DNA from: Naegleria gruberi
Taxonomy: Eukaryota
Assembly: GCA_000004985.1 (NCBI GenBank)
Contig: GG738859.1
DNA length: 64,000 bases
Strand: one strand, 5' to 3'
The notes beneath the pieces are model-generated. The model did no database searches. It had not been told where the DNA came from and worked only from the letters and a program-made list of their open reading frames with translations. The translations under genes were made by a program, and so were the position numbers. Shown in pieces: positions 33,601 to 39,708 of this stretch (positions within the stretch are counted from its first letter, which is position 1; the number at the start of each line of letters is the position of its first letter).

Positions 33601-35690
33601 AAACCAAATTTTCAAACAAGGACAATATGGACTATGAAATGATTAATATTCCAGAAGGAGTTTGTATTGTAAACTTGGATGAAGATGTTATCAGATTTGT
33701 TGGAGAAGAGAGTGATGTATTATCATCAAAGAGTCAGTGGAAATGGTCTAGCGCTCTAATGCAGTACATTAAAGACGCAGTTGAAAAGAGTAGATCTAAT
33801 TTTGAAAAGAGCAATAGTGAATATATGAATCAAATCATCAAGAAGAGAGACGCTCAAATTCCCTCCCTCACCAGGAGAGGCAGTAGCTTCTTCTTCAAGG
33901 GCAGAAAGAAGGGTTCCTCAACTTTTATCAAAAATTCACCCTCAGTGAAGAATATTCTCGAGTCGTCTGAGGAAGTTGAAGTGACTGGAAAGGATCCACT
34001 CTCGAGTGGCTTATTTTCTCCATCAGCAAATAGCAATGATCATTATTTGAACCCTTCTCAAACTAGAAAAAGATCTGCAGCAGTTAGACCACTTGCAAAC
34101 CTCACTCAGAAAGAGCCACCACCAACCTCCACCCTTACCACTCCAAGACTTTCAATTTCAAACTCTCAAGCAATCATTTCTAAAAGGAAAAAGTCAGTAA
34201 TGGCTGTTGCTCAGGAAAATCAAGTGAGTCCACTTCTTACAGTTCACCCAATTAGAGAAATATTCTTGAATGTATTTATTAGATTACTTACTTGTTATGA
34301 AATATTTATTCAATTTGACAAGTTTGATCCAAAGAATGATATGAATATGACTGACATTTTTAATATTGACAAGTTTTTGAGTCTTGATAATTATGGAGGT
34401 TTTACTCCAGGATCTTCCCAAGTATCTCAAAATTTTAACCCATTCCAATTGAAGGACAAGACCATCAATAAGAAATTATTGATGGCTCTAACTCATTATG
34501 GAAATTATGGTGGTCATGTAGATTCTGTATTTCTCCGAGAATTCTTTAAAACTCAAATATTCCACTACTTTATCCAAAAGAAATGCGAGCTCTTTTGGAA
34601 TATTAGTAATTCCTTCAAGTCAAACACCCCAGAGGGAAATATGCCAATGAAGAGAACAGACTTTGCACAATCACTTCCTGATCTATTCGTTCAACATGAC
34701 AATATGCTCGAGCAAAACAAGCAATTGTCAGAGCATGTTCTTGCTTCAACAGTGACCAATACTTTCTACAAACTCTTTGATTACAAGATGCAACAATCTA
34801 CTGAAAGATTTTCACTCAATCTCTCCCTGATGCAAACCTCATACAGAAGATCATTCCTCTATAAACGAGGACGTTTCAGAAAGTCATGGAAGAAGAGATT
34901 CTTTGTTTTGAGAGATGACAATACAATGCTTTACTATGAAGGAGCAGAAGAAACTCAACTCAAAGGTTCAATCAAGTTGACTACCGATGGATTGACAAAG
35001 GTTTTCTCTGTCAAGGTCAATGAAAAGCGCATCTTTGAAAAGAATAGTGAATCTGAAGATGATTCATACTTTACATGGACAAAGAGCCAACAACTCGAAC
35101 TTGCTAGTTTATTGAAATTTGCTAGAGCCATGAATCAATCAGAGGATTCTGGAAGTGCTACCAATAATAATGAGGAAGAGGGAGTTCCTTCCACCTCTGA
35201 ACAATTCCCAACACCTTATGTTTTTGTGGTATTTGTGCCGGGTGGTAGATTGCTCTACTGTTGTGCTGAAAGTGAAAAAGCCAGAGAAGAATGGATCAAA
35301 GTTTTGAGAGCCAAGGTTATGCAATCAAATGTTACTTCCTCACTTCAGGATTATCTCAACAGATTGAAATGGCAACAAAGCAAGAAGAATTTCAACAAGA
35401 AGATTATTATCAATAGTGTTGGACATATAATCAACCATCAACCAAGTACTTCATCTATTTCCCATATCCAATCATCTCCCAATTTAGTGAATTCACCAAC
35501 ATCACCAGTCACTGCTATTCATCAACAACCTCTTGTTTTACACAAAATATTTGATTTTGTACCAATTGCTTTTAGAAATTCCAGCGAGCGTTACAAGGAA
35601 AGAAATGCAGACCTTGACATTCAAAGTATCAGTACAAGAATGCCTCTAGAGGAGTTCACACTAAGATCTTGTCTTGAAGTTATAAATTAA
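30666..35690 (+). CDS. DENN-domain protein with C-terminal PH domain (Rab-GEF family)
   Basis: 1674-aa single ORF. There is a long S/N/T-rich N-terminus. A uDENN/cDENN/dDENN region follows (FIRYPSCICILSRYAFHSTFLKFYSF...LYRMVMVMESLRHLIYPFRMTSIYIPIAHEKIINFLEAPFPYMVGTHSE). A PH domain is present (YKRGRFRKSWKKRFFVLRDDNTMLYYEG...WIKVLRAKV). Confidence 0.8.
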   Translation: MKAKPSLKSQKSPNSSSFPLLTFTNTINNRNKLNNLFIEEEELQDITPSMLKNKPPISNEYNDSSKYDNTSTCSSSISSVITTNSTLAKKPTSPSFAKRFLNQFSLPNLLSTPTKTNEKSIRTPPPNFPRHYAHFDSPDIVDSMEVRPSSVRGSKDNRNPQQNTPTIAGDEKNFSTITHEETLKRKINNSSPLSSSIIDSIGIGQLNSDRSLLPLESQRAKSNSRTHEIPISKKQSLQSSLSNLKEALLKVDDCCERDCNHKTSSNHQEEETKQYQPLDSSYCWCDRSNLLNCSCGSTGSHHHNINNSTSIDNNIINISNTLGTTNTTAFIFSPSREALFHQFKHYNIKSLLNTPSSLASKSVDNLINLMTESEAHSSSSTTTNNNSTSGSTATQQQQQQDNQSSSVLLENLCSRYRRIIEDVCILSLNTTQINEIIQTKFGECLKATLESPPSTPSSPAEEEEKNAVEETANNKPSNVIIHVKREATLIDNYPKEKKKKSSNQSSEQHQQHFQEDSFLGGSDLTPLSLQFFTFPNDIIAQLIACKKSNDSPLLEDQDNNNENSQENTSSPLEFELKCIDARKHTLLKDIFSGEEQLESLENNNSNDQEEDQEEDYENFIEQSKIHPPARSYHTFINTDAYGFKYYGFCYTKFFTYRVCNVTRDGKPIHNDNVEFFIRYPSCICILSRYAFHSTFLKFYSFLDQYLFENNDGFFCSDCGYFTFNEELLKYMYDFFNNTDPNATPATPSGLDMNLSLPALYDKLVVHFPSMAITSPSDYVFTSKTSTDPSSNCINEVKVEFDKMLFVGTKEEHFKEASPIDKHHHQPSSPNSNSPSDPFDDASKSTEKAPNFPMCDFDYSILTTCLSIDNIITIVNYLSLEKSLIFHSVNLYRMVMVMESLRHLIYPFRMTSIYIPIAHEKIINFLEAPFPYMVGTHSEVMWNHFRIGFEKKSSPFRRTLCSQFEAPSSSHKVNVLNLNETKFSNKDNMDYEMINIPEGVCIVNLDEDVIRFVGEESDVLSSKSQWKWSSALMQYIKDAVEKSRSNFEKSNSEYMNQIIKKRDAQIPSLTRRGSSFFFKGRKKGSSTFIKNSPSVKNILESSEEVEVTGKDPLSSGLFSPSANSNDHYLNPSQTRKRSAAVRPLANLTQKEPPPTSTLTTPRLSISNSQAIISKRKKSVMAVAQENQVSPLLTVHPIREIFLNVFIRLLTCYEIFIQFDKFDPKNDMNMTDIFNIDKFLSLDNYGGFTPGSSQVSQNFNPFQLKDKTINKKLLMALTHYGNYGGHVDSVFLREFFKTQIFHYFIQKKCELFWNISNSFKSNTPEGNMPMKRTDFAQSLPDLFVQHDNMLEQNKQLSEHVLASTVTNTFYKLFDYKMQQSTERFSLNLSLMQTSYRRSFLYKRGRFRKSWKKRFFVLRDDNTMLYYEGAEETQLKGSIKLTTDGLTKVFSVKVNEKRIFEKNSESEDDSYFTWTKSQQLELASLLKFARAMNQSEDSGSATNNNEEEGVPSTSEQFPTPYVFVVFVPGGRLLYCCAESEKAREEWIKVLRAKVMQSNVTSSLQDYLNRLKWQQSKKNFNKKIIINSVGHIINHQPSTSSISHIQSSPNLVNSPTSPVTAIHQQPLVLHKIFDFVPIAFRNSSERYKERNADLDIQSISTRMPLEEFTLRSCLEVIN

Positions 35691-35731
35691 TTTATTCTCT
35701 ATTTAAAATTTAATTTTGAATGAATTTAAGG

Positions 35732-38229
35732 TTAAAGCTCACAAGTTTGATTATCACAAAATCTTTCTGGTGAAGGTTCTTGTTTGATTCTATGTTCAGA
35801 AAGTGGTGATGTTGTTTTCAGTTTTGATCTCATTTCATTGTAAACTTCCTCCGTAATGCTCTCGTATGGCATTTGAGGATAAGGTGATGTATCTTGATCC
35901 ATCATTGGTAAAAAGCTAACTCCTTTGAGTTGATATTGGAAATAGTCAAGAGCATATTGAATCTGTTTACCTTCTGTTTGAGGATTGAAAGTAATAGTTG
36001 CACTGACCTGATTATCAGACCAATACTTTTGTAAAAAGGAAGCCAAAGATAATTGTTCCCACATTGAGAGCTCCTTTGCTGTTCTTATACCCTCTCCACA
36101 ATCTATTGGGAATTCAATAATGGTGGTATTTGGATCAGAGACTGCTGGTTCAGTTTTAAAACCTGCCTCTCTCAATGTTTCTACGAGTGGAGAATTATTA
36201 GCCAATCTCAATCGTCTAATGTAGAATCTCGAAATTGGATAATGCATTCCAGGTGTTGCTCCAGCAAGTAAACTCACAGTACCACTTGGCTTGATAGAGG
36301 TTGTTTTGATGGATCTTGGAATGGCCAACCAATCACTGAATTTCTTATCAAAATCTTGAATACTTTCATAACCCACCGAAGCCCATTTCTTCAATTCATC
36401 AATTCCTCTCTTGGTAATAAATTGTGCGATACCACTCATTGAACAACCAATTCTTCTATTTCTGAGCATTACTCTATTCACATCAGGCCAATGAGTCTTT
36501 CCCAAAGTTACAGTCTTGGCGAATAGGAAGGCATACTTGAGAGTTCTCTGGAAATCTTCCAATGACTCATGATTAGTTGGGAATGTCTCAACAAGACAAC
36601 ATAATTCATAACTTTCCAAAGTTTGTTCCAAACATGGATTACCTCCAGTAGCTCTGAAATCCTTGTTATCCTCAATTCCATTCATTCTAGAGAATTTTCT
36701 CATATTCTCCAAAAAGGCAATACCTGGTTCTCCATTAATTTCCATTCTCTTGGAAACCTTGGTATAATCCATGCCAATATTAGCAAATATAGAGTTGTTT
36801 GAGGTCCAGCCATATGACATTCTATGTGGATTCTTTTCATAATTTTTCAAATCAATAAATTCCTCATCATTAGCTTCACCAAAAGCAATTTCTGCTGATC
36901 TTCTAATATTTCCAGAAACTACACATTTTCCAATATAATTCATCAAATCCACAATATTTGTCACTGTAATTGGTTGTCCAGAACTCTTATCCAAAATAGA
37001 TTTGATATTTTCATGCAATTCTTTAAGAGATTCAGGTCCACTACTAACACCTCCAAATCCTCTAATAATTGCACCAGCTGGTCTAATCTTGCTGTAATCG
37101 AAAACTTGTGGTGCATTTCCGTTGAAATACGAATCTAACAACACTTTTACACTTTCAACCCATCCTTCTCTTGAATCGGCAATTATATTCATTGTTGGTT
37201 GTTTGGAATTGTCAATTCCCTTAATGACTGATATGTTAAATAAATTGAGTTAACAATATTGTTAAATATCAAAAAATAAACATATGAGCAGATTTCAAAA
37301 AACAACTTACCAAAACTTCCAGCTCCCTTTGTATCAAATCCAACTCCTACACCCAACATACTCATATCCATCAAAAAGACAAATGGCTTCAGAGGATCTT
37401 CTTTCATTGATTCTGTACTGACAAATGCACAATTATTAAGAGCTGCATAGAGACCTCTCTGTTCAGTCAATGGTGTTCCCATTCCCCAGAGACCTCTTCC
37501 AGATGGTAAGAATTTCATATTGAAAATTCTGTCATACATTTCCTGAGCAGATCTTTGAGCTTTTCTAGGATTCCAACCCAATTTATGATGCTCAATCCAA
37601 TTCCTTTGCATATTATAAGTACCATTCACAACTCTCTCCACAGTTTCATACCATTCTTCATTTCTATTCTCTTCCTCAATGACTCTTGAATAGGTTCTTT
37701 TATAAACCACTTCTCCGAGTCCATTAAAACCAAATGGTGGAGGTATATTCTTGTACTTTTCCACGAAAGCCTTACTCAACTTGAATCGATGCATATTTGA
37801 ATCATTGGTTACAGTTGTATCAATGGTCATACTGGTAGTTTCCAAATTACGTAGTTTTTTATATAATGTACTAATGTCAGCAGCCACTGATGATGATGTA
37901 TTACCTCCCATCACATCATTCATTAATTGAATATTTGTATGATAATTAAATCCCGAACAAGTCTTTATATTATTCAACATTAGAAATTCGTCATGATTTG
38001 ATTTCCTCCTCAACACAACTCCACCTTGTTTCCTACCAACACTACCCAACAAATATGTTGTTGAAGAGGTAGTAGTTGAGGAAACAACAGATCGTAAAAC
38101 AGTCTTTTGGCACGGTGATGATTTAAACATTTTTTCAAAAAGTTTGATAATTGGTTTTAAATACAAAGAGATTGAATTTTGATTAGGAAGAGATTTTAAA
38201 AGAAAGAGGTATTCTTTTTTGATTCGCAT
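35732..38229 (-). CDS. class II (adenosylcobalamin-type) ribonucleotide reductase, NrdJ-like, with ~150-aa N-terminal extension
   Basis: Two exons: 37311..38229 and 35732..37227. The intron 37228..37310 is 83 nt (GTAAGT...TATCAG). The RNR class II core has the active-site Cys region GGNPCLEQTLESYELCCLVETF and the C-terminal redox Cys pair (CDNQTCEL). The N-terminal region (MFKSSPCQKTVLRSVV...) may be a targeting or regulatory extension. Confidence 0.8.
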
Positions 38230-38391
38230 AGATCACACAGAGTATTTTGATTGAGCAGAGAGAGGGACTGGAATATTTGTGTGAGATTCTCAATTTTGAT
38301 TGGATTCAACAAGAGTTGAACCTTAATGAATAGTTTGGATAATATTGAGTGAATTGTTCTAATTGATTGAGGCAAAGAAGAAAAGAATAAT

Positions 38392-39708
38392 TTATTGAAT
38401 TTTAGCACCTTTTGCTTGACCTCTTTTCTTTTGATTCGGATTTAATAAACTCTTTGGTGCCTTTCGTTTTGGAGCTGAATTCTTTCGTTCCTGATCACTG
38501 GATGAGCTACCATCATCTGCAGCTGCACCAAGTCCTCCCAAATCGTGAGCTCCACTCGTAGTTGAAGGTTGATAGAGAATTAAACGATCTTGAGCTTGCC
38601 TCAATTTTTGACGTGTCTCTTGGAGCTCATTCCTCAGATCTGAGATGAGTTTGGCATCTTTGAGGGCACGAATTTCACTCAGTGCATTTCCATGACAAAC
38701 CAAATCCAAGAGTAATTGTTGCAATTTTTGTGTGAAATCACTAATGTGTCTGATGGCATATAACTCGAAAAGGAATTTGAGACGAATATTGAGGAGGGCA
38801 CTACTACCAGCTGTATTACTGGAAGAGGAATGTTGTGAATTGTCTTGTTGCTGATCTGAAGAAGAAGATTGTGGAATGGATTTGAGTGGTGAATAAATTA
38901 CAAGTTGGAGAACATCCTTTGATTCCTTATTTTCCTCATCAAATTGAAGAACAATATCACTCTCAGAAGGATCATCCATTCCAACACTCTTCTCACCTCT
39001 CTTATAAATAAACAATCCGTTTCTCAAGTATTGTAAATAATTGGCCCAAGAGATGTGATTCATACTAATCTTTTTACGATGTTGCTGCAAATCGTCAAAT
39101 CCCAAATCAGCTTCATAATATTCATCACCTCCATTAGTACAGGTCAGTAACAATCTCAATGCCTGTTGCTTAATTCTATCATTGAGTCGATCCAGATTCT
39201 TCAATTGTTGAACATCATTGGCCAGTGATTGTGTAAAACTTCCAACAACTGAAGCTGCTCCATTATTAGCTCTCCCTCCGTCAGTAGCCAAAACACAACT
39301 ATTAGAAATATCACCTCCTGCATAGTACTGTTCACTCGGAGCTCCAGCAAAATTATTCAATAATGAAATGGTCGTCTGATTTGGTAATTGATGATCGTGA
39401 GGATGATTGGCCTGTTGTTTTTGTGGATGATTCAATAGAGCACAATGATTTGATGTTGTCACACAGTGTTCCTCACTTGTGATGGCATTCCTAAATGGCC
39501 GAATAACTCTCATACTCACCACGAAGGGAACTCTATCTAGGTAGACAATCTTGTGAGTGGATTCCAATTTGGAGAGTTGTGTAATATAATCAATAAAATC
39601 CAATTTATCAACTTCATGTTCTTCTAAATCTTCCAATTGTTCTTCTCTTGTTGTTGATTGCAAGGAAGCTGATGATGATCCCGATAGAGAAGAGGATGTC
39701 GATTTCAT
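38392..39708 (-). CDS. hypothetical protein (438 aa), Ser/Gln-rich, no recognisable domain
   Basis: Uninterrupted ORF with an N-terminal acidic region, a central conserved-looking block (ISWANYLQYLRNGLFIYKRGEKS) and a C-terminal basic tail. Confidence 0.5.
   Translation of the reverse strand: MKSTSSSLSGSSSASLQSTTREEQLEDLEEHEVDKLDFIDYITQLSKLESTHKIVYLDRVPFVVSMRVIRPFRNAITSEEHCVTTSNHCALLNHPQKQQANHPHDHQLPNQTTISLLNNFAGAPSEQYYAGGDISNSCVLATDGGRANNGAASVVGSFTQSLANDVQQLKNLDRLNDRIKQQALRLLLTCTNGGDEYYEADLGFDDLQQHRKKISMNHISWANYLQYLRNGLFIYKRGEKSVGMDDPSESDIVLQFDEENKESKDVLQLVIYSPLKSIPQSSSSDQQQDNSQHSSSSNTAGSSALLNIRLKFLFELYAIRHISDFTQKLQQLLLDLVCHGNALSEIRALKDAKLISDLRNELQETRQKLRQAQDRLILYQPSTTSGAHDLGGLGAAADDGSSSSDQERKNSAPKRKAPKSLLNPNQKKRGQAKGAKIQ

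What the first reader, a model, noticed from the sequence alone, without database searches (positions are those of the whole stretch)
35732..38229. Eukaryotic class II (B12-dependent-type) ribonucleotide reductase with a novel N-terminal extension
The two-exon gene encodes a monomeric-type class II RNR core. Its active-site region is GGNPCLEQTLESYELCCLVETF and the C-terminal redox pair is CDNQTCEL. Class II RNRs are overwhelmingly prokaryotic. Their eukaryotic occurrences (Euglena, dictyostelids) are attributed to horizontal acquisition. Here the gene has a spliceosomal intron and a ~150-aa N-terminal extension of unknown function (MFKSSPCQ...), which may be a targeting peptide or a regulatory domain. 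Coexistence with a class I RNR and B12 dependence in this organism would be physiologically informative.
Basis: partly seen in the sequence, partly recalled or inferred. Interest (0 to 1): 0.55.

Follow-up and report, generated by a model that had tools for sequence, protein, structure and literature searches.

The report
Naegleria B12 ribonucleotide reductase with presequence
This is the already catalogued vitamin-B12-dependent (class II) ribonucleotide reductase gene of the amoeba Naegleria gruberi; the one feature not described before is a roughly 115-residue N-terminal leader, missing from the public gene model, that looks like a mitochondrial import signal.

Summary
On the minus strand, a two-exon gene (exon 1 37311-38130, GT-AG intron 37228-37310, exon 2 35732-37227) encodes a 771-aa protein. 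It passes the curated model for monomeric adenosylcobalamin-dependent ribonucleoside-triphosphate reductase and keeps every catalytic cysteine of the Lactobacillus leichmannii enzyme.

The gene is not new. The window is Naegleria gruberi nuclear DNA. The protein is XP_002679146.1 (NAEGRDRAFT_32325), already placed in a published eukaryotic class II tree (Crona 2013). Class I NrdA/NrdB of this species are also published (Lundin 2010).

The N-terminal extension is real, but it is about 115 aa, not 150. The RefSeq model starts at internal Met113 and omits it. It lies in the same ORF as the catalytic core, and orthologues in N. fowleri, N. lovaniensis and Willaertia keep it open under purifying selection. 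Every eukaryotic relative examined has an extension; their phage, bacterial and archaeal relatives have none.

Its composition matches experimentally supported N. gruberi mitochondrial presequences, including a conserved [FY]-H-T motif. I infer mitochondrial import (about 0.6). That would place the enzyme where adenosylcobalamin is used. It is untested, and the enzyme is absent from the held part of the published N. gruberi mitochondrial proteome.

The nearest non-eukaryotic relatives are uncultivated T4-like phages.

The parts
35732..38130 (-). Whole coding region of the class II RNR gene: ATG at 38130 (MFKSS...) to the stop at 35732-35734, 771 aa after splicing.
   Evidence: TIGR02505 RTPR scores 386.9 bits against a cutoff of 340. 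Residues 113-771 are 100% identical to XP_002679146.1.
38131..38229 (-). In-frame stretch between the first ATG of the ORF (38229) and the MFKSS ATG. Probably 5' UTR rather than coding.
   Evidence: The ATG at 38229 has T at -3, whereas the ATG at 38130 follows AAAAA. The added 33 aa (MRIKKEYLF...) put an acidic residue at position 6 and have no counterpart in orthologues. This is inferred, not shown.
37942..38130 (-). Putative mitochondrial presequence, aa 1-63 (MFKSSPCQKTVLRSVVSSTTT...GFNY).
   Evidence: There is no acidic residue before D47. Eight K/R precede it, and net charge over the first 40 aa is +5. These are the same values as the medians of 24 experimentally supported N. gruberi mitochondrial presequence proteins (first acidic 44, net +5). 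Window ORF controls give 10 and -1. AlphaFold gives pLDDT about 26 with no secondary structure.
37936..37944 (-). Y63-H64-T65, the candidate processing-site motif. It is conserved as [FY]-H-T in all five heterolobosean orthologues.
   Evidence: Alignment A1 shows N. gruberi FNYHTN, P0002 RRYHTN, N. fowleri and N. lovaniensis CGYHTC, and Willaertia RSFHTN. The motif [FY][HS][ST] occurs in 16 of 24 N. gruberi mitochondrial N-termini and in 3 of 27 controls (Fisher p = 5e-5). This is its only occurrence in the extension.
37816..37863 (-). Conserved block Y90-T105 (YKKLRNLETTSMTIDT) in the part of the extension that would remain on the mature protein. Its function is unknown.
   Evidence: It is conserved as [YF]K[KR]xRxL[ED]T[TS]S[ML]T[IL] in N. 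gruberi, P0002, N. fowleri, N. lovaniensis and Willaertia. Amoebozoan, phage and bacterial sequences lack it.
37311..37785 (-). Exon-1 part of the catalytic core, from F116. It includes the RNR_Alpha domain (aa 118-219, 37474-37779) and redox Cys234 (37429-37431).
   Evidence: Pfam PF17975 E = 8.9e-45. F116 aligns to residue 5 of 1L1L, and C234 aligns to L. leichmannii C119.
37228..37310 (-). Spliceosomal intron, 83 nt, GTAAGT...CAG, phase 1, between codons 273 and 274.
   Evidence: The intron is absent from N. fowleri and from the P0002 organism (gene length equals 3 x aa + 3). Willaertia has a 74-nt intron at a different site.
35732..37227 (-). Exon 2: the dimer-mimicking insertion domain, the barrel, the C-terminal tail and the stop codon.
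   Evidence: Pfam PF21995 and PF02867. 1L1L alignment domains 2 and 3.
36581..36646 (-). Finger-loop/active-site segment GGNPCLEQTLESYELCCLVETF. It contains N470, thiyl-radical C472, E474 and redox C483.
   Evidence: These align to L. leichmannii N406, C408, E410 and C419. They are invariant in 31 homologues. Coordinates are verified.
35735..35758 (-). C-terminal CDNQTCEL. C764 and C769 form the CxxxxC shuttle pair that receives electrons from thioredoxin.
   Evidence: Both cysteines are nearly invariant across eukaryotic and phage homologues. The equivalence to L. leichmannii C731/C736 comes from established knowledge. The pairwise alignment did not reach this tail.

Best explanation
This is a bona fide nuclear gene of Naegleria gruberi for a monomeric, adenosylcobalamin-dependent class II ribonucleotide reductase of the RTPR (L. 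leichmannii) type.

Mechanism, by homology: homolysis of the coenzyme's Co-C bond generates a thiyl radical on Cys472. That radical abstracts the 3'-H of a ribonucleoside triphosphate. Cys234 and Cys483 supply the reducing equivalents and form a disulfide. The C-terminal pair Cys764/Cys769 re-reduces that disulfide, and is itself reduced by thioredoxin. An internal insertion domain replaces the dimer interface and forms the specificity-effector site.

Inferred: the protein is made with a leader of about 115 aa that the public N. gruberi gene model omits. The first ~63 residues act as a mitochondrial matrix-targeting presequence, probably cleaved near Y63|H64. A tail of about 50 residues carrying a Heterolobosea-specific conserved block would remain on the mature enzyme. 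The enzyme would then make dNTPs directly from NTPs inside the mitochondrion. That is the compartment where N. gruberi's other adenosylcobalamin enzyme, methylmalonyl-CoA mutase, is found. It would work independently of the O2- and iron-dependent cytosolic class I enzyme.

Shown: gene structure, family membership, catalytic residues, conservation and translation of the extension, and its likeness to presequences. Inferred: import, cleavage site, substrate and physiological role.
For: Identity:
- TIGR02505 scores 386.9 bits (cutoff 340), against 20 bits for the class I model.
- Pfam finds RNR_Alpha, RNR-II_ins_dom and the barrel domain.
- 1L1L matches at E = 1e-98, with N406/C408/E410/C419/C119 all matched.
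- The protein is 100% identical to XP_002679146.1.

Nuclear and eukaryotic:
- Neighbouring genes encode DENN/PH, inositol-trisphosphate kinase, Tubby, RGS and ankyrin proteins.
- The gene has a spliceosomal intron.

The extension is translated:
- It is in one ORF with the core. The chance of no stop in 115 codons at this base composition is 1.5e-4.
- The ORF is open for 105-161 codons in N. fowleri, N. lovaniensis, Willaertia and P0002, with two conserved blocks.
- dN/dS between N. fowleri and N. lovaniensis is 0.42 in the extension and 0.04 in the core, at equal dS.

Presequence character:
- The first acidic residue is at position 47 and net charge over the first 40 aa is +5. Both match the medians of 24 proteins from the experimental N. 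gruberi mitochondrial proteome. Window controls give 10 and -1.
- The motif [FY][HS][ST] is enriched in that set (16/24 against 3/27). In the extension it occurs only at the conserved YHT.
- All 14 eukaryotic relatives examined carry basic, S/T-rich, acid-poor extensions of 41-161 aa. They span Heterolobosea, Amoebozoa (including the dictyostelid Cavenderia) and Rigifila. The sister phage clade (30 sequences read or aligned, several hundred by length) has none. The Bacteroidota and Asgard genes match the core and have core-like lengths.
- The D. discoideum ORF begins MLTIKRLLLN, read from the cloning primer.
- Methylmalonyl-CoA mutase is in the N. gruberi mitochondrial proteome with 40 unique peptides.
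- No Pfam domain is found in the extension, and it is predicted to be disordered.
Against: There is no localisation experiment, and no trained predictor (TargetP, MitoFates) could be run.

The protein (searched by accession, by name and by its N-terminal peptide MHRFKLSKAF) is absent from the held part of the published N. gruberi mitochondrial proteome table. That includes the complete DNA/nucleotide-metabolism category. The stored file is truncated, and the enzyme may be poorly expressed in axenic trophozoites; Dictyostelium NrdJ protein was undetectable.

N. gruberi lacks Arg at -3 of the putative cleavage site, although P0002 and Willaertia have it. The amphipathic-helix signal is modest (hydrophobic moment 0.96). 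AlphaFold predicted no helix, but that model was poor overall (mean pLDDT 58).

The positive control set was chosen with TargetP >= 58, so it is enriched for canonical presequences. Substrate (NTP or NDP), B12 dependence and monomeric state rest on homology only.
Confidence: 0.62

Rival explanations
1. The enzyme is the same, but it is cytosolic. On this view the extension is a fast-evolving disordered N-terminal tail. It could be a linker, a regulatory or protein-interaction segment, or a degradation signal, and it only resembles a presequence in composition.
For: The enzyme is not found in the held part of the N. gruberi mitochondrial proteome. Low-complexity S/T/N-rich tracts are common in Naegleria proteins generally, for example the neighbouring ORFs. 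dN/dS of 0.42 shows only weak constraint. A conserved block (Y90-T105) lies outside the putative presequence, so the extension does something beyond targeting.
Against: Low-complexity tails in the window's other ORFs are not acid-free; only 1 of 29 reaches position 47 without D or E. Independent lineages (Rigifila MSGLRRILSVPWLPSIRLLAARSSSS, P0041 ...TTMRLRYLSSTAS, Cavenderia, Balamuthia) carry unrelated sequences with the same biased composition. That pattern is what targeting peptides show and what functional domains do not. The conserved YHT coincides with a motif enriched in genuine N. gruberi mitochondrial N-termini.
Confidence: 0.27
2. The public gene model is right. Translation starts at Met113 (MHRFKLSK...), and the upstream 112 codons are untranslated leader that happens to be open.
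For: RefSeq and GenBank annotate a 659-aa product starting at this Met, which sits exactly at the start of the bacterial-like core.
Against: The chance of 115 stop-free codons is 1.5e-4. The Met is not conserved; orthologues have Y, H or G-H at that position. Four other Heterolobosea keep the upstream frame open with in-frame indels only, two conserved peptide blocks, and dN/dS of 0.42. Annotators of N. fowleri and Willaertia included the extension.
Confidence: 0.06
3. The gene is not part of the amoeba genome. On this view it is contaminating bacterial or phage DNA, or a very recent insertion.
For: The closest non-eukaryotic relatives are abundant environmental phage genes at 65-68% identity.
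Against: The gene has a spliceosomal intron and host-like GC content (0.35). It is flanked by typical eukaryotic genes within 41 and 261 nt. Orthologues occur in four other Heterolobosea, with conserved RRM-RNR-HDAC synteny in the three whose downstream flank is held, and they form a 100%-supported clade.
Confidence: 0.01

Closest known systems
Lactobacillus leichmannii ribonucleoside-triphosphate reductase (RTPR; PDB 1L1L), the archetypal monomeric class II RNR
   Same: Same family (TIGR02505 above cutoff). The match runs over residues 116-741 in three aligned segments at E = 1e-98. N406/C408/E410, C119/C419 and the dimer-mimicking insertion domain are all conserved, and there is a C-terminal CxxxxC.
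   Different: The Naegleria protein carries an extra N-terminal leader of about 115 aa, is nuclear-encoded with an intron, and lacks some L. leichmannii insertions (core about 657 aa against 739 aa). Substrate and cofactor use are untested here.
Dictyostelid NrdJ (D. discoideum DDB_G0292654; Cavenderia fasciculata P0145)
   Same: It belongs to the same eukaryotic clade (98% NJ bootstrap) at about 65% identity. It coexists with class I RNR. It also has an N-terminal extension (Cavenderia about 130 aa; D. discoideum begins MLTIKRLLLN).
   Different: The extension sequences cannot be aligned with the Naegleria one. The D. discoideum gene has no intron. Its role is described as 'enigmatic', and the protein was neither detectable in vivo nor soluble when expressed in E. 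coli.
Orthologues in N. fowleri (FDP41_000484, 818 aa), N. lovaniensis and Willaertia magna (757 aa)
   Same: 75-80% identity. They share the [FY]HT and YK+xRxLETTSMTID blocks in the extension.
   Different: They are intronless, or have an intron at another site, and they sit in a conserved RRM-RNR-HDAC neighbourhood that N. gruberi has lost. Their annotations include the extension, whereas the N. gruberi annotation does not.
RTPR genes of uncultivated T4-like phages (P0010-P0120; at least 596 IMG/VR contigs)
   Same: 65-68% identity over the whole core. They form the sister clade of the eukaryotic enzymes (100% support for the joint clade) and share all catalytic residues.
   Different: They have no N-terminal extension (656-677 aa). 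They sit in a phage replication module with a gp32-like SSB, UvsX, a DnaB-like helicase, PolB and a sliding clamp.
Euglena gracilis class II RNR
   Same: The literature places it in the same clan of eukaryotic monomeric class II enzymes.
   Different: It was not retrieved here, so its N-terminus was not examined. From my own knowledge, in Euglena it is regarded as the cell's principal RNR, whereas Naegleria also has class I.

Membership tests
Monomeric adenosylcobalamin-dependent class II RNR (RTPR, NCBIfam TIGR02505) | Whole-protein score above the curated family cutoff, and higher than for the dimeric NrdJ and class I models | tested here: met
   386.9 bits against a cutoff of 340. NrdJ_Z scores 76 bits (cutoff 400) and NrdE_NrdA 20 bits.
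Monomeric adenosylcobalamin-dependent class II RNR (RTPR, NCBIfam TIGR02505) | Finger-loop thiyl-radical cysteine with flanking Asn and Glu (L. leichmannii N406, C408, E410) | tested here: met
   N470-P-C472-L-E474 aligns to NPCGE of 1L1L and is invariant in 31 homologues.
Monomeric adenosylcobalamin-dependent class II RNR (RTPR, NCBIfam TIGR02505) | Active-site redox cysteine pair (L. leichmannii C119/C419) | tested here: met
   C234 aligns to C119 and C483 to C419. Both are invariant.
Monomeric adenosylcobalamin-dependent class II RNR (RTPR, NCBIfam TIGR02505) | C-terminal CxxxxC pair that shuttles electrons from thioredoxin | tested here: met
   C764-DNQT-C769 lies 2 residues from the C-terminus and is nearly invariant in the family alignment. 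Equivalence to L. leichmannii C731/C736 comes from established knowledge.
Monomeric adenosylcobalamin-dependent class II RNR (RTPR, NCBIfam TIGR02505) | [quoted passage not shown] | tested here: met
   Pfam PF21995 RNR-II_ins_dom scores 48.5 bits against a cutoff of 27. The oligomeric state itself was not measured.
Monomeric adenosylcobalamin-dependent class II RNR (RTPR, NCBIfam TIGR02505) | Adenosylcobalamin-dependent reduction of ribonucleoside triphosphates | not testable with these tools
   This requires an enzyme assay. The only support is homology. N. gruberi does have another AdoCbl enzyme, methylmalonyl-CoA mutase.
Proteins imported by a cleavable mitochondrial matrix presequence | N-terminal 20-60 aa that are basic, hydroxylated and free of acidic residues | tested here: met
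   The first D/E is at position 47, preceded by 8 K/R, with 14 S/T in the first 40 aa. These values match the medians of 24 experimentally supported N. gruberi mitochondrial proteins and not those of window controls.
Proteins imported by a cleavable mitochondrial matrix presequence | Processing-peptidase motif (R-2/R-3 type; in N. gruberi R-x-[FY]-[HS]-[ST]) | tested here: inconclusive
   The YHT motif is present and conserved. However, N. gruberi has N rather than R at -3; Willaertia (RSFHT) and P0002 (RRYHT) have the Arg. The cleavage site has not been determined.
Proteins imported by a cleavable mitochondrial matrix presequence | Ability to form an amphipathic helix | tested here: inconclusive
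   The maximum 18-residue hydrophobic moment is 0.96, which is modest. AlphaFold shows no helix, but at pLDDT about 26 in a poor model.
Proteins imported by a cleavable mitochondrial matrix presequence | Experimental presence in mitochondria | tested here: not met
   The protein is not found in the held part of Supplementary Data 2 of PMC8134430, searched by accession, name or N-terminal peptide. The DNA/nucleotide category is complete there. The stored file is truncated and expression may be low, so this weakens the inference without excluding it.
Class I RNR large subunit (NrdA/RNR1) | Match to the NrdA/NrdE model; ATP-cone; partner R2 radical subunit | tested here: not met
   TIGR02506 scores 20.4 bits against a cutoff of 341. 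No ATP-cone or any other Pfam domain is found in the extension.

The most novel reading that the evidence does not exclude
Eukaryotic monomeric class II RNRs (Naegleria, Willaertia, dictyostelids, Balamuthia, Thecamoeba, Filamoeba, Rigifila and others) are organellar enzymes. On this reading they form a dedicated, B12-dependent, O2- and iron-independent mitochondrial ribonucleotide reductase that makes dNTPs for mtDNA in situ, in the compartment where adenosylcobalamin is used. This would explain why these organisms keep a second RNR whose role has been called 'enigmatic'. The gene family would share a single origin with a clade of T4-like phage RNRs. I found no mention of such targeting in the held literature.
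Probability: 0.5. Interest if true: 0.65.

Novelty: already known. Interest (0 to 1): 0.3.

Why it matters
As a gene, it matters little. It is a deposited and published member of the small eukaryotic class II RNR clade, and its coexistence with class I is on record.

Two modest points have value. First, the public N. gruberi model is truncated by 112 codons. That removes exactly the part that would determine localisation, and it may bias proteome-wide targeting predictions. Second, every eukaryotic relative examined carries a presequence-like leader, while the phage, bacterial and archaeal relatives do not.

If import is confirmed, it would be the first dedicated mitochondrial ribonucleotide reductase. 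It would also give a concrete answer to what the 'enigmatic' second RNR of amoebae is for. It could further explain why full-length Dictyostelium NrdJ was insoluble in E. coli. This is testable with a simple leader-GFP fusion.

Tried and rejected
- **Pfam on the isolated extensions** of N. gruberi, N. fowleri and Balamuthia at E <= 10 gave only noise, with no ATP-cone or other domain.
- **AlphaFold2** with a 31-sequence alignment gave a poor model (mean pLDDT 58). It is usable only to say that residues 1-112 are unstructured at low confidence, and no fold search was attempted.
- **Cultured phages:** the best match is 45% identity (Actinomycetia phage DSL-LC01, Mycobacterium phage Gaia), so they are not the close relatives.
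- **Mitochondrial proteome papers** (Andalucia, Euglena, Acanthamoeba) do not mention RNR or B12 enzymes in the text held.
- **N. fowleri genomics supplements** contain only a lysosomal cobalamin transporter hit.
- **Literature searches** for mitochondrial or organellar class II RNR returned nothing relevant.
- **Alternative initiation at Met113** as a conserved dual-targeting device was rejected, because the Met is unique to N. gruberi.
- **ER signal peptide** was rejected by reading the sequence: there is no hydrophobic core in the first 30 residues.
- **Conserved intron as an ancient feature** was rejected. N. fowleri and P0002 lack introns, and the Willaertia intron is elsewhere.
- **Vertical Asgard ancestry** of the eukaryotic enzyme is not supported by the NJ tree. 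Asgard sequences group apart from the eukaryote+phage clade. The tree is distance-based and thinly sampled.
Full report
**1. What is in the sequence**

The feature lies on the minus strand. ORFs 37189-38229 and 35732-37192 are joined by an 83-nt intron (37228-37310, GTAAGT...CAG, phase 1). This gives one frame that ends in CDNQTCEL-stop.

From the ATG at 38130 (MFKSS...) the product is 771 aa. The first ATG of the ORF, at 38229, would add 33 residues. Its context is poor (T at -3, against AAAAA before 38130), and the added peptide is acidic and has no counterpart in orthologues. I therefore take 38130 as the start. That choice is inferred, not shown.

**2. What the protein is**

- NCBIfam's equivalog model for adenosylcobalamin-dependent ribonucleoside-triphosphate reductase (TIGR02505) scores 386.9 bits against a cutoff of 340. 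The dimeric NrdJ model scores 76 bits and the class I model 20 bits.
- Pfam finds RNR_Alpha (aa 118-219), the class II insertion domain, and the barrel.
- The best solved structure is L. leichmannii RTPR (1L1L, E = 1e-98). Residue 5 of that chain aligns to residue 116 here.
- The catalytic residues correspond one to one: C234 = C119, N470/C472/E474 = N406/C408/E410, and C483 = C419.
- C764 and C769 form the C-terminal CxxxxC. All of these are invariant or nearly so in 31 homologues.

**3. Whose gene it is, and is it new**

The window is Naegleria gruberi. Residues 113-771 are 100% identical to XP_002679146.1 / EFC46402.1 / NAEGRDRAFT_32325 / UniProt D2VAC0, a 659-aa 'predicted protein' that UniRef names ribonucleoside-triphosphate reductase.

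The neighbouring genes are typical of a eukaryote: DENN/PH, inositol-trisphosphate 5/6-kinase, Tubby, RGS and ankyrin. GC content is uniform at about 0.35.

- Crona et al. 2013 (PMC3605638) already place the N. gruberi enzyme in a clan with Dictyostelium, stramenopiles, Euglena and Capsaspora, and attribute the clan to horizontal transfer.
- Lundin et al. 2010 (PMC3019208) include N. gruberi NrdA and NrdB in their class I trees.

So the gene, its class, its horizontal-transfer interpretation and its coexistence with class I are all on record.

**4. The N-terminal extension is real and translated**

The core begins at F116, so the extension is about 115 aa, not about 150. It lies in the same uninterrupted ORF as the RNR_Alpha domain. 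The upstream gene ends separately at 38392, 261 nt away. It is therefore not a mis-joined gene.

The chance of 115 stop-free codons at this base composition is 1.5e-4. The RefSeq model starts at Met113, but that Met is unique to N. gruberi.

Four other Heterolobosea keep the frame open for 105-161 codons upstream of the core: N. fowleri (818 aa), N. lovaniensis, Willaertia magna (757 aa) and an environmental Naegleria-like contig (P0002, 776 aa). They share two conserved blocks, [FY]-H-T-[NC] and [YF]K[KR]xRxL[ED]T[TS]S[ML]T[IL].

Between N. fowleri and N. lovaniensis, dS is equal in the extension and the core (0.56 and 0.55). dN/dS is 0.42 in the extension and 0.04 in the core. That means the extension is translated, only weakly constrained, and changes length by in-frame indels only.

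**5. What the extension is**

No Pfam family, including the ATP-cone, matches it. AlphaFold gives no structure there, with pLDDT about 26 in a generally poor model.

Its composition is that of a mitochondrial presequence. No acidic residue occurs before D47, eight K/R precede it, and there are 14 S/T in the first 40 residues.

For a species-specific yardstick, I took 24 N-termini from the experimental N. gruberi mitochondrial proteome of Horvathova et al. 2021 (PMC8134430, Supplementary Data 2). I compared these with 27 long ORFs from this window.

| Measure | RNR extension | 24 mitochondrial proteins | 27 window ORFs |
|---|---|---|---|
| Position of first acidic residue | 47 | median 44 | median 10 |
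| Net charge, first 40 aa | +5 | median +5 | median -1 |
| Motif [FY][HS][ST] present | once, at Y63-H64-T65 | 16 of 24 | 3 of 27 |

The motif enrichment gives Fisher p = 5e-5. The motif's single occurrence in the extension is exactly the block conserved across Heterolobosea. Willaertia (RSFHT) and P0002 (RRYHT) also carry the Arg at -3 expected of a processing-peptidase site.

The pattern extends beyond Heterolobosea. Thecamoeba, Filamoeba, Luapelamoeba, Balamuthia, the dictyostelid Cavenderia, Rigifila and several unnamed transcriptome or metagenome sequences all carry unrelated but similarly biased leaders of 41-161 aa. One example is Rigifila, MSGLRRILSVPWLPSIRLLAARSSSS. The closely related phage proteins are 656-677 aa and begin at the core. 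The Bacteroidota and Asgard genes match the core and have core-like lengths.

The D. discoideum ORF begins MLTIKRLLLN (primer sequence). The same paper reports that the full-length protein was insoluble in E. coli and calls the enzyme's role 'enigmatic'.

**6. Most likely mechanism**

Chemistry, by homology: AdoCbl homolysis produces the Cys472 thiyl radical, which abstracts the 3'-H. Cys234 and Cys483 carry out the reduction. The disulfide passes to Cys764/Cys769 and is then reduced by thioredoxin. The insertion domain provides the allosteric specificity site in a monomer.

Location, by inference (about 0.6): the protein is imported into the mitochondrial matrix and processed near Y63|H64. 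A tail of about 50 residues with the conserved YKKLRNLETTSMTIDT block, of unknown role, would remain.

This location makes biochemical sense. N. gruberi's other AdoCbl enzyme, methylmalonyl-CoA mutase, is an abundant component of the mitochondrial proteome (40 peptides). NTP substrates are plentiful in the matrix. A class II enzyme needs neither O2 nor a di-iron partner subunit.

**7. Evidence against, and rivals**

The enzyme is not in the held portion of the N. gruberi mitochondrial proteome table. I searched by accession, by name and by N-terminal peptide, and its DNA/nucleotide-metabolism category is fully held. The stored file is truncated and expression may be low, but this is a real negative.

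Further weaknesses:
- N. gruberi lacks Arg at -3 of the putative site.
- The amphipathicity signal is modest.
- My positive set was pre-filtered on TargetP score.
- No trained predictor was available.

The main rival, at about 0.27, is a cytosolic enzyme with a disordered tail that only resembles a presequence. The RefSeq short model (about 0.06) and contamination (about 0.01) are poorly supported.

**8. Evolutionary context**

- **Introns.** N. fowleri and P0002 are intronless. Willaertia has a 74-nt intron at a different codon, after GFGGV. The introns are therefore lineage-specific gains.
- **Synteny.** N. fowleri, N. lovaniensis and Willaertia share an RRM-RNR-HDAC neighbourhood. The short P0002 contig shows the RRM gene on the upstream side. 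N. gruberi does not have this neighbourhood.
- **Closest non-eukaryotic relatives.** These are 656-677-aa proteins at 65-68% identity. They sit in T4-like phage replication modules with a gp32-type SSB, UvsX, a DnaB-like helicase, PolB and a clamp. They recur on at least 596 IMG/VR viral contigs. Cultured phages reach only 45% identity.
- **Cellular relatives.** Bacteroidota are 50-53% identical and many Asgard archaea are 46-52% identical.
- **Tree.** I built neighbour-joining trees from 637 aligned columns with 200 bootstraps. The eukaryotic clade, including Cavenderia, has 98% support. Heterolobosea have 100%, the phage clade 100%, and eukaryotes plus phages against Bacteroidota and Asgard 100%. 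The tree is distance-based and unrooted, and it lacks Euglena, stramenopiles and Capsaspora. The direction of transfer cannot be read from it.

**9. Verdict**

The gene is already known, and interest in the finding as written is low. What remains is a gene-model correction and a testable hypothesis, not found in the literature held here, that this clade of eukaryotic class II RNRs is mitochondrial.

Noticed in passing
L033-L072 (for example L038:3001-4923, L069:3001-4944): Dozens of Asgard archaeal MAGs (Promethearchaeota, Hod-, Hermod- and Thorarchaeota) encode monomeric RTPR-type class II RNRs 46-52% identical to the Naegleria core. In the NJ tree they form their own clade, separate from eukaryotes plus phages. 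The published horizontal-transfer discussion (2010, 2013) took all archaeal class II RNRs to be dimeric.
   Followed up: partly
L081:10089-12824 (also L082:6799-9534): In the T4-like phage contigs, the gene directly downstream of the B12-dependent RNR encodes a 911-aa protein resembling a TonB-dependent receptor (CarboxypepD_reg plus Plug; weak SusC/RagA match). This may be a phage-borne outer-membrane uptake gene, conceivably for corrinoids, and it hints at Bacteroidota hosts. A radical-SAM/SPASM gene lies two genes upstream.
   Followed up: partly
L167:1501-3687 (N. lovaniensis PYSW02000014.1): The N. lovaniensis orthologue's ORF stops after 374 codons. The deposited 687-aa model skips conserved segments, including the finger-loop neighbourhood. 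This suggests an assembly frameshift patched with artificial introns rather than a real pseudogene.
   Followed up: partly
window 35732-39708 compared with L084, L165, L166, L167: In N. fowleri, N. lovaniensis and Willaertia the gene lies between a divergent RRM-domain gene and a histone-deacetylase gene. The short P0002 contig shows the RRM gene upstream. In N. gruberi the neighbours are an unannotated 438-aa S/Q-rich protein and a convergent DENN/PH gene, so the gene has been relocated in this species.
   Followed up: partly
window 35690-35732: The stop codons of the RNR gene and of the convergent 1674-aa DENN/PH gene are only 41 nt apart. Their 3' UTRs must overlap or be extremely short.
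   Followed up: no
P0008 (Rigifila ramosa transcript): The Rigifila protein contains an exact internal repeat of about 100 residues (IRRVLIGKDSPLL...QVSC appears twice). This is almost certainly a transcriptome-assembly artefact, so the sequence was left out of the tree.
   Followed up: no
PMC8134430 Supplementary Data 2, parts 1-3: Many experimentally supported N. gruberi mitochondrial proteins have unusually long (30-75 aa) S/T/N-rich presequences that end in R-x-[FY]-[HS]-[ST]. Examples are RNFSSS, RLFSTL, RNYHTT and MMFHTA. This looks like a species-specific processing consensus that could be used to re-annotate truncated gene models.
   Followed up: partly
P0009, P0126, P0127, P0125 (Balamuthia mandrillaris): Balamuthia carries at least two near-identical full-length copies or alleles (809 and 812 aa), plus a 675-aa 'variant 2' that keeps the same N-terminal leader.
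   Followed up: no
window 38392-39708 (-): The 438-aa ORF immediately upstream, on the same strand, has no Pfam match. It is rich in S/Q/N tracts and ends in a basic KRKAPKSLLNPNQKKRGQAKGAKIQ tail that looks like a nuclear localisation signal.
   Followed up: no
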